From Escherichia phage vB_EcoM_VR25: a stretch of 64,000 nucleotides of DNA. Location: sequence record NC_028925.1; one strand, written 5' to 3'. Positions 1-2,093 of this stretch are shown piece after piece; within the stretch, counting starts at the first letter, position 1, and each line of letters starts with the position of its first letter. The notes beneath the pieces are model-generated. The model had not been told where the DNA came from. It saw only the letters and a list, made by a program, of their open reading frames with translations, and ran no database searches. A program made the position numbers and the translations under genes.

Positions 1-58
1 CTTCACAGATTAGTGCACGGATTTGGTCTTCAATTTCTTTAACAGTTTTAGTAGTCAT
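1..58 (-). CDS. hypothetical protein, 5' fragment (gene continues beyond window start)
   Basis: ATG at 56-58 (minus) preceded by AAGGA RBS; open frame runs off the left edge (MTTKTVKEIEDQIRAL...). Confidence 0.3.
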   Translation of the reverse strand, partial: MTTKTVKEIEDQIRALICE

Positions 59-66
59 TTATTTCC

Positions 67-264
67 TTAGCATTCGTAAGAGGAGGACACCCAAGAGGTA
101 CCGCTAATAGTAATGCATCCATTATAAAGCGTGATATGCCTGTCTAAGTCACGAACACCGCTAATATAGATATCAGCTTCTTCACGTTCTTCTTTACAAA
201 TCTGGATAACATTTTCAATAGCCGCTTTAGCGGTACGGATTGCACAATCTAATTCACGAGACAT
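67..264 (-). CDS. small hypothetical protein, member 1 of WVSSSxEC C-terminal tail family
   Basis: ORF track 65 aa; AAGGA RBS upstream of ATG at 264; C-terminus ...GTSWVSSSYEC. Confidence 0.5.
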   Translation of the reverse strand: MSRELDCAIRTAKAAIENVIQICKEEREEADIYISGVRDLDRHITLYNGCITISGTSWVSSSYEC

Positions 265-273
265 AATATTTCC

Positions 274-555
274 TTAACATTCAGCAGAAGAGGACACCCA
301 ACCACCTTCTGCAAGGTCTGTGGTGTAGTCATGTTGGTTAACAATAGCATATTGGGCTTCACCGTAGTTTTCCCAATGTTCAAGGTCAGCTTTCAGGGCG
401 CCAGGAGAATAATAGTCACCGCCCATACCGCGAGCAGGGTATATATTAAAATGAGTCTCATATTTGTCTGCAATTTCCTCAGCGCGACGAATAGCTTCAT
501 GGATTTCTTTTACTGCGGCCAGAAGCTCTGGTTGGTTATGGTTATCATTCATCAT
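274..555 (-). CDS. small hypothetical protein, member 2 of WVSSSxEC family
   Basis: ORF track 274..756 trimmed to internal ATG at 553-555 (MMNDNHN...) because the upstream part overlaps the next gene; C-terminus ...GGWVSSSAEC. Confidence 0.45.
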   Translation of the reverse strand: MMNDNHNQPELLAAVKEIHEAIRRAEEIADKYETHFNIYPARGMGGDYYSPGALKADLEHWENYGEAQYAIVNQHDYTTDLAEGGWVSSSAEC

Positions 556-556
556 A

Positions 557-847
557 TTAACACATCTCAGAAGAGGAGACCCAAGCACCAACGGTAACAA
601 CCCCATTTTCAACTTTTCCACCGTTGGCTTCAATATGATGGGTAAACCATTCAGAGCATTCATAACCGACTGGGTGGTATGTACGACCTGTGCCGTAATC
701 GCCGGTGCTGAATTCAATGCCATATTCATCAGCGATTTCTTCACAATGTGTTTCAATTTCAGAGGTCTTATTTAGAAGAGAATAGATAGCTTTTTCTGCA
801 GATTTCTCATCATAATACTTAGGGATAGCGATTTCAATTTTATTCAT
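557..847 (-). CDS. small hypothetical protein, member 3 of WVSSSxEC family
   Basis: ORF track 96 aa; start ATG overlaps stop of upstream gene (ATGA); C-terminus ...GAWVSSSEMC. Confidence 0.5.
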   Translation of the reverse strand: MNKIEIAIPKYYDEKSAEKAIYSLLNKTSEIETHCEEIADEYGIEFSTGDYGTGRTYHPVGYECSEWFTHHIEANGGKVENGVVTVGAWVSSSEMC

Positions 848-1197
848 GATTTACATTCCTTAATAAAGGTTTCAAGGTCATTACGTTTTGTTTTGTTCAG
901 GAACTTATTATACTCAGCCATTGCCAAAGCGTATCTCTTACGGATGGGAGCATTCAAGGCGTTTGTGTAACAGATATCATACACAACCGGGATAAAATAG
1001 GCCACAACAGCCGGAGCAATTATCATAAAGAAGCCCATCTCAATAGGCATGACTCCCTCGATTGCAGCCATAACCGTTGTCATTACCAGGCCAACCAGGC
1101 CACCGAGCATAGCGGTGGCAATCCCTAATAATAAATTGGCACCAATATCATATTCAGCCAATTGATAAACATGTGATGCAAGACTAGGCCGTTCCAT
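844..1197 (-). CDS. small membrane protein (two predicted hydrophobic helices)
   Basis: ORF track 844..1290 trimmed to ATG at 1195-1197 with AAGGAGG RBS; hydrophobic stretches LLLGIATAMLGGLVGLVMTTVMAAI and FFMIIAPAVVAYFIPVV. Confidence 0.5.
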   Translation of the reverse strand: MERPSLASHVYQLAEYDIGANLLLGIATAMLGGLVGLVMTTVMAAIEGVMPIEMGFFMIIAPAVVAYFIPVVYDICYTNALNAPIRKRYALAMAEYNKFLNKTKRNDLETFIKECKS

Positions 1198-1543
1198 TAC
1201 GAACCTCCTTGATAAATTCTTCTGCACATTTAATTTTGTGCTCTTTTTGTAGGGAAACGCATTTTTGTTCCCACTCTTTAACTCGACCACGATATCCTTT
1301 ATTCATATGATTTTGATGCCACACATTTATCAATATCATACTCAGGACTGTAATAAAAGGAGCTGCAATTATTAGTGCCCAGGCGACTCCAACACTAATG
1401 ATATTCATATCCCCACAAAGCACCATCATTATAACCCCAACGATGCACATGGACAGAGCTCCAAATGGAGGCATAAGGTCTTTATCAATCTTGTCTGCGT
1501 ACACAAATTTTTCTGGTTTACCTGGCAGATATAACGTTCGCAT
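1184..1543 (-). CDS. small membrane protein
   Basis: ORF track 1184..1567 trimmed to ATG at 1541-1543; hydrophobic segments CIVGVIMMVL and VAWALIIAAPFITVLSMILI. Confidence 0.45.
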   Translation of the reverse strand: MRTLYLPGKPEKFVYADKIDKDLMPPFGALSMCIVGVIMMVLCGDMNIISVGVAWALIIAAPFITVLSMILINVWHQNHMNKGYRGRVKEWEQKCVSLQKEHKIKCAEEFIKEVRNGTA

Positions 1544-2072
1544 TTTGAACCCCTTTAGCGTATTCACGGCATTCTTTAATAAAACGATTAAGCTTACGCT
1601 GCTGTTTACGACTTTCTAATGTATATTCGTCGGCCAAAATAGTAAGCTCATCTTTATCGTAATTTTTAATATCAGAGTAAGATGGTCTACGGTCAACCAT
1701 TCCAAATACATCGCCATTTTCTAGCGCTACATAACATACTAAATGGTAATCATCATCTGCTATATTAAGAAGCACACAATCATCGCTCTCGTTTAACGCA
1801 TACACAGAATAGCGTAATCCAGCGAATTCCACTCGTTGAATACCCAGATTTACATCAATAATTTCCAAGGCATCTGCGAAAGAAAGGTCTTCAGCTAAAG
1901 CAAAAATAAAAGGCAATTTTGTAGTATCGCCACGGCTAGTTGTTCTTCTTAAGAAATCATTGGAATAACCCAAGTCACCGCGGATTCTGTAAAGAACTGT
2001 ATTAGTTTCAGTAGCAAGGCCACTACCGCCAAACCAGTCTACATTTGATATAAGGTCAGTATATAAGCTCAT
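1518..2072 (-). CDS. hypothetical protein
   Basis: ORF track 1518..2090 trimmed to ATG at 2070-2072 with GGAGAGGAG RBS. Confidence 0.5.
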   Translation of the reverse strand: MSLYTDLISNVDWFGGSGLATETNTVLYRIRGDLGYSNDFLRRTTSRGDTTKLPFIFALAEDLSFADALEIIDVNLGIQRVEFAGLRYSVYALNESDDCVLLNIADDDYHLVCYVALENGDVFGMVDRRPSYSDIKNYDKDELTILADEYTLESRKQQRKLNRFIKECREYAKGVQNANVISAR

Positions 2073-2093
2073 AATTTTCTCCTCTCCCAATTA

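What the first reader, a model, noticed from the sequence alone, without database searches (positions are those of the whole stretch)
67..847. Three tandem small genes whose products share a C-terminal tail G-x-W-V-S-S-S-x-(E/M)-C
The products of 67..264, 274..555 and 557..847 end ...GTSWVSSSYEC, ...GGWVSSSAEC and ...GAWVSSSEMC; otherwise they are only loosely similar (acidic, with HxxI/EEIAD-like patches). The codons vary synonymously (GTG/GTC, TCC/TCT), which argues for selection on the peptide. The same stretch is pyrimidine-rich (UCCUCYUCU) in the mRNA and sits 12-20 nt upstream of the next start codon, so it could also pair with the downstream Shine-Dalgarno for translational coupling. 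I do not recognise this motif from T4, so it may be a new small-protein family or tag.
Basis: seen in the sequence. Interest (0 to 1): 0.7.

Follow-up and report, generated by a model that had tools for sequence, protein, structure and literature searches.

The report
Tail-tagged small proteins partnering phage nucleotidyltransferase
The three small genes belong to a widespread, unstudied family of acidic phage proteins that all end in Trp-x-x-Ser-Ser-(x-x)-Cys and are almost always encoded just upstream of one predicted nucleotide-transferring enzyme, so the shared tail is most likely how these proteins work with that enzyme.

Summary
Window 557..847, 274..555 and 67..264 (all minus strand) encode acidic proteins of 96, 93 and 65 aa ending WVSSSEMC, WVSSSAEC and WVSSSYEC. 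A fourth member starts at 57..1 and is cut by the window edge. The window is a Gaprivervirus (T4-like) genome.

The tail W-x-x-S-S-x(0,2)-C is conserved as a peptide. Tail Ser codons switch between TCN and AGY (28% AGY), so the pyrimidine tract is not conserved. The junction RNAs fold no better than shuffles.

The family (PHROG 899/4882; no Pfam, no literature, no PDB fold match) occurs in T4-like, jumbo, rV5-like and Pseudomonas phages, at 1-6 copies per locus. It is tightly linked to a ~315-aa protein (Pfam DUF7277+DUF7275). In 80 viral loci taken around that gene, 186 tail ORFs were found, all on the same strand and upstream (74/80 loci). Four of four informative metagenome contigs reached from distant small proteins carry the enzyme gene downstream.

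Best reading, inferred and not shown: the tail is the element this nucleotidyltransferase recognises, probably as an acceptor site. The function is untested.

The parts
557..847 (-). Tail-family gene, 96 aa, pI 4.6, ends GAWVSSSEMC. The AF2 model has a long helix (residues 14-42) plus a small beta-sheet.
   Evidence: PHROG 899, E 1.9e-22; pLDDT 91
560..583 (-). Codons of the tail W-V-S-S-S-E-M-C of the 96-aa protein
274..555 (-). Tail-family gene, 93 aa, pI 4.6, ends GGWVSSSAEC. Its only Cys is the terminal one. The start ATG lies 1 nt after the upstream stop codon.
   Evidence: (PHROG 899, E 5.3e-20)
277..300 (-). Codons of the tail W-V-S-S-S-A-E-C of the 93-aa protein
67..264 (-). Tail-family gene, 65 aa, pI 4.75, ends TSWVSSSYEC
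   Evidence: (PHROG 4882, E 2.7e-36)
70..93 (-). Codons of the tail W-V-S-S-S-Y-E-C of the 65-aa protein
1..57 (-). N-terminus (MTTKTVKEIEDQIRALICE...) of a fourth tail-family gene, cut by the window edge. Orthologues are 72-76 aa and end ...GFW(F/Y)(N/T/S)SSMSC.

Best explanation
The three genes (plus a fourth cut by the window edge, and probably a fifth beyond it) encode members of a phage-specific family of small acidic cytoplasmic proteins. The only universally conserved feature of the family is the C-terminal motif W-x-x-S-S-x(0,2)-C. They form a conserved, co-oriented module with a downstream ~315-aa enzyme (Pfam DUF7277+DUF7275) that has a MenT/AbiEii/ANT-type nucleotidyltransferase fold and an intact catalytic core.

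Proposed mechanism:
- The Trp anchors the last beta-strand.
- The Ser-Ser...Cys turn is presented to the nucleotidyltransferase.
- The enzyme recognises this shared tail on several different protein bodies and transfers a nucleotidyl (or phospho-linked) group to a tail Ser hydroxyl or to the Cys thiol, so that one enzyme modifies a set of early effector proteins.

Shown here: the family, peptide-level selection on the tail, the genetic linkage, and the enzyme fold with its conserved catalytic residues.

Inferred only: physical recognition of the tail by the enzyme, covalent transfer, and the biological role (host takeover or anti-defence, suggested by the location in an early-gene region).
For: (1) Linkage.
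- In 80 viral loci collected with the enzyme as bait, 186 ORFs end in W..SS.{0,2}C. All are on the enzyme's strand and upstream. None occurs among the ~6,000 ORFs in the other three quadrants.
- 74 of 80 loci have at least one, at a median of 879 bp from the enzyme's start.
- 24 of 27 enzyme clusters at 70% identity have tail ORFs.
- Clustering all neighbouring ORFs shows that only two families are shared by nearly all loci: the enzyme (80 loci) and the tail proteins (72 loci in the main cluster).

(2) Reverse direction.
- Starting from distant small-protein representatives, 4 of 4 informative metagenome contigs have the enzyme gene downstream. One contig carries six tail genes.
- Per-genus record counts for the two proteins in GenBank phages nearly coincide: Escherichia 251/258, Aeromonas 60/59, Enterobacter 34/36, Klebsiella 34/35, Shigella 18/18.
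- In the window's closest relative the enzyme lies 0.74-1.7 kb beyond the window's left edge.
- T4 lacks both genes in the 100 kb examined.

(3) Enzyme.
- The AF2 model has pLDDT 92.
- G6, S7, D25 and D27 are invariant in all 79 sequences that cover the N-terminus. K125, H128, K139, R165, E240, E241, E248, R249, K270, C272, S274, S277 and R281 are invariant in 80/80, and H194, D195 and H198 in 79/80. This is an active enzyme, not a pseudo-enzyme.

(4) Tail as a shared handle.
- In 232 non-identical members, W, S, S and C are 100% conserved by construction of the search pattern. They are also the only invariant columns in unbiased alignments.
- 95 of 232 members have no Cys other than the tail Cys.
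- The bodies have diverged into separate PHROGs.
- This pattern, variable bodies with one invariant nucleophile-rich terminal motif, is what substrates of a shared modifying enzyme look like (established knowledge: sortase LPXTG, the lipobox, the ACP DSL motif).

(5) Precedent, from papers and general knowledge.
- NTase-fold enzymes O-nucleotidylylate hydroxyl groups (ANT(2''), LnuA: descriptions).
- MenT-type NTases are encoded downstream of small partner proteins (PMC7450476).

(6) Clade-specific residues. R129, H174, C272, S277 and R281 of the enzyme are invariant or nearly so (R129 77/80, H174 79/80, the rest 80/80) in the tail-associated clade. All five are replaced in the three distant tail-less homologues from Gordonia, Streptomyces and Vibrio phages.
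Against: - There is no direct evidence of binding or modification. Gene neighbourhood is the only link.
- The tail genes are often separated from the enzyme gene by unrelated small genes, so this is not a tight 1:1 pair.
- In the AF2 model the Trp and the following residues are part of the last beta-strand, and SSxxC forms a short helix. The motif could therefore be mainly structural.
- Some members carry one residue after the Cys (W-x-S-S-T-x-x-C-N/S/R), and some have a second internal copy (DW-x-SS-x-C). A free C-terminal carboxylate is therefore not required.
- The closest structural relatives, the MenT toxins, act on tRNA 3' ends, not on proteins (PMC7450476).
- Six of 80 enzyme loci have no strict tail ORF. 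DSS3_VP1 keeps C272, S277 and R281 but has no tail gene within 4 kb.
Confidence: 0.35

Rival explanations
1. The small proteins are regulators of the nucleotidyltransferase (MenA/antitoxin-like or specificity adaptors), not its substrates. They bind the enzyme through the tail and the N-terminal helix. They either hold its activity in check or direct it to different targets such as host tRNAs. No covalent modification of the tail occurs.
Against: There are up to 5-6 anciently diverged paralogues per genome, and they are often not adjacent to the enzyme gene, which is unlike toxin-antitoxin pairs. The hosts are strictly lytic phages. There is no sequence similarity to any antitoxin family. The invariant residues are nucleophiles (Ser, Ser, Cys) rather than a hydrophobic interface. 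The enzyme's pI is about 6.4, which is not the electropositive surface expected of a tRNA binder.
Confidence: 0.25
2. The tail is an intrinsic structural or ligand-binding element of an autonomous effector family. Examples: a Trp core anchor plus a Cys used for a metal site or for oligomerisation, or a small-molecule pocket formed together with the YG(M/S)GGTYYP loop. In this view the nucleotidyltransferase is linked only at pathway level or by co-inheritance.
For: The AF2 model places W-V-S in the last beta-strand with high confidence, so the tail is not a floppy tag. A second conserved motif, YGxGGTYYP, is present in many members. Internal second copies of the motif exist. Multi-copy small acidic phage proteins often act on their own as binders or sponges (general knowledge).
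Against: This does not explain why the only gene family that travels with the tail proteins, across T4-like, jumbo, rV5-like and Otagovirus phages and at different genome positions, is the enzyme, always downstream on the same strand. The YGxGGTYYP motif is absent from two subfamilies that keep the tail. 95 of 232 members have a single Cys, so a metal site would need oligomers or a partner.
Confidence: 0.25
3. RNA-level explanation. The UCCUCYUCU stretch is conserved because it pairs with the downstream Shine-Dalgarno to couple translation of the tandem genes.
For: In the window and its close relatives the tails are followed after 1-10 nt by the next start codon. The stop codon TAA overlaps a TAAGGA Shine-Dalgarno. 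The first Ser codon is enriched for TCC (15.8% against 7.5% in the bodies).
Against: Across 182 distinct genes, 28% of tail Ser codons are AGC/AGT, which destroys the pyrimidine tract while keeping Ser. Many tails are followed by no start codon within 30 nt. The junction RNAs fold with z +0.61 to +0.79 against shuffles, and the minimum-energy structures do not consistently pair the tract with the Shine-Dalgarno. The amino-acid motif persists in phages with unrelated junction sequences.
Confidence: 0.02
4. RiPP-like precursors. A tail Ser is activated, for example adenylylated by the NTase, and eliminated to dehydroalanine. The Cys thiol then adds to it and forms a C-terminal lanthionine-type ring.
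For: The S-x-x-C spacing at a C-terminus resembles lanthionine or AviCys ring-forming motifs (from memory, not tested). Several tandem precursor-like genes sit beside a single enzyme gene.
Against: No dehydratase, cyclase or LanD-like gene is conserved in the neighbourhood. The proteins are 65-150 aa and confidently folded, with the motif partly inside a beta-strand. It is the would-be core that is invariant while the rest varies, the opposite of RiPP families. The SSC variants have a different spacing.
Confidence: 0.05

Closest known systems
MenA/MenT and AbiE (DUF1814) nucleotidyltransferase toxin-antitoxin systems
   Different: There is no sequence-level DUF1814 match (Pfam search). The module is found in phages and, in the genome scan, only in 5 MAG contigs that carry the same module. 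There are 1-6 paralogous small partners defined by a C-terminal W-x-x-S-S-x(0,2)-C motif, unrelated to MenA or AbiEi and often not adjacent to the enzyme gene. Toxicity and tRNA activity are untested.
Aminoglycoside/lincosamide O-nucleotidyltransferases ANT(2'') (AadB) and LnuA
   Different: These are single-gene resistance enzymes that act on small molecules. They have no partner proteins and are much shorter (158-175 aa), lacking the DUF7275 lobe.
MNT-HEPN (type VII TA) and GlnD/GlnE-type protein nucleotidylylation; CitX/MdcG holo-ACP synthases (recalled from memory, not tested here)
   Same: Pol-beta-fold enzymes that covalently attach nucleotides or nucleotide-derived groups to Tyr or Ser of a small partner protein. 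This is the functional analogy for the best explanation.
PHROG 899 / PHROG 4882 (small proteins) and PHROG 2141 / Pfam DUF7277 (PF23942) + DUF7275 (PF23940) (enzyme)
   Same: The window proteins and the linked enzyme are clear members of these automatically or curatorially defined families.
   Different: All are labelled 'unknown function'. None records the tail motif, the nucleotidyltransferase fold or the linkage between the two families. No paper in the searched library mentions them.
Lanthipeptide/AviCys-type RiPP precursors
   Same: Tandem small genes with Ser...Cys near the C-terminus, next to one enzyme gene.
   Different: No RiPP enzymes are conserved nearby. The proteins are folded. 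The conserved and variable parts are inverted relative to the usual leader/core arrangement.

Membership tests
PHROG 899 / 4882 (phage small proteins of unknown function) | Significant match to the family profile HMM | tested here: met
   557..847: PHROG 899, E 1.9e-22. 274..555: PHROG 899, E 5.3e-20. 67..264: PHROG 4882, E 2.7e-36.
Tail family as defined here | C-terminal W-x-x-S-S-x(0,2)-C, with Cys last or next to last | tested here: met
   All three window proteins have it. So do 52 of 62 distant representatives, and most of the rest are near-variants.
Tail family as defined here | Encoded upstream of, and co-oriented with, a DUF7277+DUF7275 gene | tested here: inconclusive
   The window ends inside the array, so its own enzyme gene cannot be seen, and no copy exists elsewhere in the 64 kb. 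The closest relatives TH15, SP18 and VR26 have it 0.7-2.5 kb further on.
DUF1814 / MenT / AbiEii nucleotidyltransferases (for the linked enzyme) | Pol-beta motif I, hG[GS]...Dh[DE]h, and a third carboxylate | tested here: met
   G6, S7, D25 and D27 are invariant in 79/79 sequences that cover the N-terminus. E69 is present in 73/80.
DUF1814 / MenT / AbiEii nucleotidyltransferases (for the linked enzyme) | Sequence match to the DUF1814/AbiEii family model | tested here: not met
   A Pfam scan at E<=1 returns only DUF7275 and DUF7277. PADLOC and NCBIfam return nothing. A PDB sequence profile search returns nothing relevant.
DUF1814 / MenT / AbiEii nucleotidyltransferases (for the linked enzyme) | Bi-lobed MenT-like fold | tested here: met
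DUF1814 / MenT / AbiEii nucleotidyltransferases (for the linked enzyme) | C-terminal motifs III and IV that form the catalytic site | tested here: inconclusive
   Invariant K125/H128/R129 and D193/H194/D195 exist in the helical lobe. Their equivalence to motifs III and IV was not established residue by residue.
DUF1814 / MenT / AbiEii nucleotidyltransferases (for the linked enzyme) | Growth-inhibiting tRNA 3'-end nucleotidyl transfer that is neutralised by the partner | not testable with these tools
   Needs expression and biochemical assays.
Lanthipeptide-type RiPP cluster | Dehydratase/cyclase (LanB/C, LanM, LanKC/L) or LanD gene conserved next to the precursors | tested here: not met
   Neighbourhood clustering of 80 loci finds only the NTase as a conserved partner.
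Translational-coupling RNA element | Conserved base-pairing between the tail-coding tract and the downstream Shine-Dalgarno, with a stable local fold | tested here: not met
   z +0.61 to +0.79 against shuffles. AGY codons make up 28% of tail Ser codons, and some tails have no downstream start.

The most novel reading that the evidence does not exclude
Many large lytic phages carry a previously unrecognised protein-tagging system. A dedicated MenT/ANT-fold nucleotidyltransferase covalently charges the invariant Ser-Ser/Cys C-terminal motif of a panel of 1-6 small acidic effector proteins with a nucleotide or nucleotide-derived group. That would be a new post-translational modification pathway and a new class of phage early effectors, probably for host takeover or anti-defence.
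Probability: 0.3. Interest if true: 0.85.

Novelty: new variant of a known kind. Interest (0 to 1): 0.68.

Why it matters
The module occurs in at least about 700 sequenced phages (730 GenBank records for the enzyme). These include therapeutic-type T4-like coliphages (Gaprivervirus, Dhakavirus, Mosigvirus), Klebsiella, Enterobacter, Acinetobacter and Aeromonas myoviruses, rV5-like phages, Pseudomonas Otagovirus and ~360-kb jumbo phages. T4 lacks it in the 100 kb examined, which fits with nobody having studied it.

The work turns a block of 'hypothetical proteins' into a defined two-component system with a sharp, testable prediction: one enzyme and one eight-residue motif.

If the tail is an acceptor or docking site, the finding would reveal a new phage protein-modification or regulation mechanism. 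It would also give a portable recognition tag and assign a role to two Pfam DUFs and three PHROGs. If the enzyme instead acts on tRNA as MenT does, the small proteins would be the first phage-encoded partners of that enzyme class.

Tried and rejected
- RNA pairing of the tail-coding tract with the downstream Shine-Dalgarno was rejected.
- Pfam, NCBIfam and PADLOC scans of the small proteins gave nothing.
- A PDB sequence profile search gave nothing for either family.
- Six literature searches found no paper on either family. They covered the DUF and PHROG names, the motif string, RB69 and phage 31 ORF names, MenT with phage, C-terminal cysteine with NTase, and RB69 with NTase and anti-defence. 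The jumbo-phage survey PMC7824862 describes RlaP and CCA-adding NTases but not this one. PMC13326640 was irrelevant.
- A bacterial origin was tested. Only 5 MAG contigs among 185,579 species genomes carry the enzyme, and all five have tail ORFs upstream, so these are probably phage sequence binned with bacterial genomes.
- A locus search with the family alignment failed for lack of a conserved 7-10-column stretch. Single-protein scans only re-found contigs already known.
- Correlation of the enzyme's Cys residues with the presence of tail genes: C243 varies (Y in 10 of 80) and is not informative. C272 is clade-specific but is retained in the tail-less DSS3_VP1.
- Domain fusions (Rosetta-stone evidence): none among 64 representatives, which are all 65-119 aa.
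- A RiPP cluster was rejected because no RiPP enzymes are conserved nearby.

Full report
**1. Observation**

The minus strand of window 1..900 carries three tightly packed ORFs.
- 557..847: 96 aa, ending ...VTVGAWVSSSEMC.
- 274..555: 93 aa, ending ...AEGGWVSSSAEC.
- 67..264: 65 aa, ending ...SGTSWVSSSYEC.

Among 582 ORFs of at least 30 aa in the whole 64-kb window, only these three end in W..SS.{0,2}C. All three proteins are acidic (pI 4.6-4.75). Outside the tail they are 16-35% identical to one another, and only M1, W, S, S and C are invariant columns.

It is incomplete in one respect. Window 57..1(-) is the start of a fourth member (MTTKTVKEIEDQIRALICE...). Its orthologues end ...GFWFNSSMSC. 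A fifth type (...DWLNSSCYGEE...GKIWYPSSC, with the motif present twice) follows in relatives.

**2. Genomic setting**

The window is 90-93% identical to Gaprivervirus phages (TH15, VR20, VR26, SP18), which are T4-like Straboviridae. The array lies directly downstream of the e.4- and e.3-like membrane-protein genes. In T4, e.3 is followed immediately by e.2. The first 100 kb of T4, which include this junction and nrdC.10/nrdC.11, contain neither the small-protein family nor its partner enzyme. The last 69 kb of T4 were not scanned.

**3. Peptide or RNA?**

Across 182 distinct tail genes from 80 loci plus the window, tail Ser codons are TCT 36%, TCC 16%, TCA 13%, TCG 7%, AGT 14% and AGC 14%. AGY codons therefore make up 28% of tail Ser codons, against 36% in the protein bodies. 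A TCN-to-AGY switch keeps the amino acid but destroys the pyrimidine tract. Several tails are followed by no start codon within 30 nt. The three window junctions fold at -5.3, -5.8 and -4.8 kcal/mol, with z-scores of +0.79, +0.64 and +0.61 against dinucleotide shuffles. The minimum-energy structures do not consistently pair the tract with the Shine-Dalgarno. Selection is on the peptide, and the RNA-pairing idea is rejected as the cause of conservation. The 1-10-nt spacers with TAA overlapping TAAGGA are ordinary T4-type coupling.

**4. The family**

- Two of the window proteins match PHROG 899 and one matches PHROG 4882. Both are labelled unknown function.
- Pfam, NCBIfam and PADLOC give nothing.
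- tblastn finds relatives in 487 phage records: Escherichia, Aeromonas, Enterobacter, Klebsiella, Pseudomonas, Shigella, Serratia, Citrobacter, Yersinia and others.
- A full HMMER scan of 1.8 billion cluster representatives finds 64 clusters, all 65-119 aa.
- Of 62 representatives that were new, 52 end in the strict motif. Seven are near-variants of the type W-x-S-S-(S/T)-x-x-C followed by one more residue, and one ends WYSSSMSRC. Two lack the end: one stops at ...GGWISSS and one has no motif at all.
- Some members have a second internal copy of the motif (DW-x-SS-x-C).
- In 232 non-identical members, 201 have SSxxC, 30 have SSC and 1 has SSxC. Median length is 87 aa and median pI 4.4. Ninety-five members have no Cys other than the tail Cys.
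- Many members also share a YG(M/S)GGTYYP loop. Two subfamilies lack it and keep only the tail.
- AF2 gives a confident model of the 96-aa protein (pLDDT 91). It has a 29-residue helix and a small sheet. W89-V-S lies in the last strand and S-S-E-M forms a short terminal helix.

**5. The key finding: a conserved partner**

In SP18, APCEc01 (Mosigvirus), phiPsa381 (Otagovirus, 99 kb), anhysbys (Phapecoctavirus) and phiAS4 (Aeromonas), tandem tail genes are always followed on the same strand by a ~300-326-aa protein. That protein is Pfam DUF7277+DUF7275, PHROG 2141, with 2,057 database homologues.

Using it as bait I collected 80 viral loci. They contain 186 ORFs ending W..SS.{0,2}C.
- All 186 lie in the upstream, same-strand quadrant. 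The other three quadrants, with about 6,000 ORFs, have none.
- 74 of 80 loci have at least one, and one further locus has a W-D-S-S-T-C variant.
- The median distance from stop codon to the enzyme's start is 879 bp.
- There are 1-5 copies per locus.
- At 70% enzyme identity, 24 of 27 clusters have tail genes.
- All-against-all clustering of the neighbouring ORFs shows that only the enzyme (80 loci) and the tail proteins (72 loci in the main cluster, plus smaller clusters) are shared broadly. Every other family is clade-specific.

The module sits at different genome positions in different phages. It is in the e/tRNA region in coliphages, next to nrdD/nrdC in phiAS4, and between genes 41 and 61 in Acinetobacter phage KARL-1. 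This argues against simple inherited synteny.

The reverse test also holds. Starting from distant small-protein representatives, all four informative metagenome contigs have the enzyme gene downstream, and one of them carries six tail genes. Three other look-ups ended too soon to tell. Genus-level record counts for the two proteins nearly coincide. In 185,579 prokaryotic species genomes the enzyme appears in only 5 MAG contigs, each with tail ORFs upstream. The window itself has no enzyme gene. In its closest relative, TH15, the enzyme gene lies 0.74-1.7 kb beyond the window's left edge, after five tail genes.

**6. What the partner is**

- The AF2 model has pLDDT 92.
- G6, S7, D25 and D27 (the Pol-beta GS...DxD core) are invariant in all 79 sequences that cover the N-terminus. 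K125, H128, K139, R165, E240, E241, E248, R249, K270, C272, S274, S277 and R281 are invariant in 80/80, and H194, D195 and H198 in 79/80.
- The median pI is 6.4.

This is therefore an active nucleotidyltransferase of the MenT/AbiEii/ANT structural class. There is no sequence-level DUF1814 match.

MenT toxins add pyrimidines to tRNA 3' ends and are encoded downstream of small antitoxins such as the 68-aa MenA1 (PMC7450476). MenA1 induces MenT1 auto-phosphorylation (PMC11375011). ANT(2'') and LnuA O-nucleotidylylate hydroxyl groups of drugs.

**7. A distant branch**

Enzyme homologues of 251-301 aa in Streptomyces, Gordonia, Vibrio K406 and DSS3_VP1 phages have no tail genes within 4 kb. Three of the four have a different conserved ~110-127-aa ORF immediately downstream. 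Two have an RNA ligase nearby. In the Streptomyces, Gordonia and Vibrio enzymes, R129, H174, C272, S277 and R281 are all replaced. In the tail-associated clade these five residues are invariant or nearly so (77/80, 79/80 and 80/80). They are therefore candidates for the tail-recognition site. DSS3_VP1 is an exception: it keeps C272, S277 and R281 without having a tail gene nearby.

**8. Interpretation**

Shown:
- a real protein family;
- peptide-level selection on W-x-x-S-S-x(0,2)-C;
- a strong, bidirectional, cross-lineage genetic linkage to one nucleotidyltransferase that looks catalytically intact.

Inferred:
- The shared tail is what this enzyme engages.
- I favour the acceptor model, in which an NMP or phospho-linked group is transferred to a tail Ser or Cys (confidence about 0.35). 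The only invariant residues on otherwise divergent bodies are a Trp anchor and three nucleophiles, and the structural relatives of the enzyme carry out O-nucleotidylylation.
- A MenA-like regulator or adaptor role (about 0.25) and an autonomous effector whose tail is structural or ligand-binding (about 0.25) remain fully open.
- A RiPP-like reading is unlikely (about 0.05), and the RNA reading is essentially excluded (about 0.02).

The location among early, hyperplastic-region genes suggests host takeover or anti-defence, but nothing here tests that.

**9. Novelty**

No paper in the searched library mentions DUF7275, DUF7277, the PHROG numbers, the motif, or RB69/phage 31 orthologue names. The families exist only as unnamed clusters. 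I found no record in these libraries of the tail signature, the fold assignment of the enzyme, or the linkage between the two families.

I rate the finding a new variant of a known kind: a nucleotidyltransferase with small partner proteins. There is roughly a 0.3 chance that it is a new protein-tagging pathway.

Noticed in passing
window 844..1200(-), 1184..1543(-), 1518..2090(-): The three genes just upstream of the array (e.3-, e.4- and e.5-like; the first two are predicted membrane proteins, PHROG 2330 and 2604) share a different C-terminal motif, F-I-K-E-C/V-K/R (...ETFIKECKS...EEFIKEVRNGTA...NRFIKECREYAKG...). The same motif recurs in APCEc01 neighbours.
   Followed up: partly
window 1..57(-): N-terminus of a fourth tail-family gene, cut by the window edge. 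The module's nucleotidyltransferase gene is expected about 0.7-1.7 kb beyond position 1, as in TH15.
   Followed up: yes
window 553..559(-): The junction between the 96-aa and 93-aa genes is TAA-T-ATG (1 nt, no Shine-Dalgarno). Relatives have TAAGGAAACGCTATG (9 nt, with a Shine-Dalgarno). This is an 8-nt deletion that implies termination-reinitiation coupling in this phage.
   Followed up: no
L092 4630..5322, L093 4600..4983, L095 4620..4985: Distant, tail-less homologues of the nucleotidyltransferase in Streptomyces, Gordonia and Vibrio phages are followed immediately by a different conserved ~110-127-aa ORF (...GYY(D/N)SWD...V.P....IT.Y). RNA ligase genes lie nearby in Annadreamy and DSS3_VP1. 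This enzyme superfamily may pair with different small partners in different phage groups.
   Followed up: partly
L121 (metagenome contig SRR25434966_1799064) 991..4323: Six tail-motif ORFs lie in 3.3 kb, directly upstream of a contig-truncated nucleotidyltransferase gene. This is the largest array seen.
   Followed up: no
tail codons in window 70..93, 277..300, 560..583 and relatives: The first Ser codon of the tail is enriched for the otherwise rare TCC (15.8% of tail Ser codons against 7.5% in the gene bodies). The three window tails are nearly identical at DNA level (TGGGTSTCCTCYTCT). This could reflect gene conversion between paralogues or a local translational preference.
   Followed up: no
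L094 2700..2876 (Acinetobacter phage KARL-1 gp213): A member sits inside a tail-gene array but ends ...NWSNSES, without the Cys. It is either a degenerate copy or a natural Cys-less variant.
   Followed up: no
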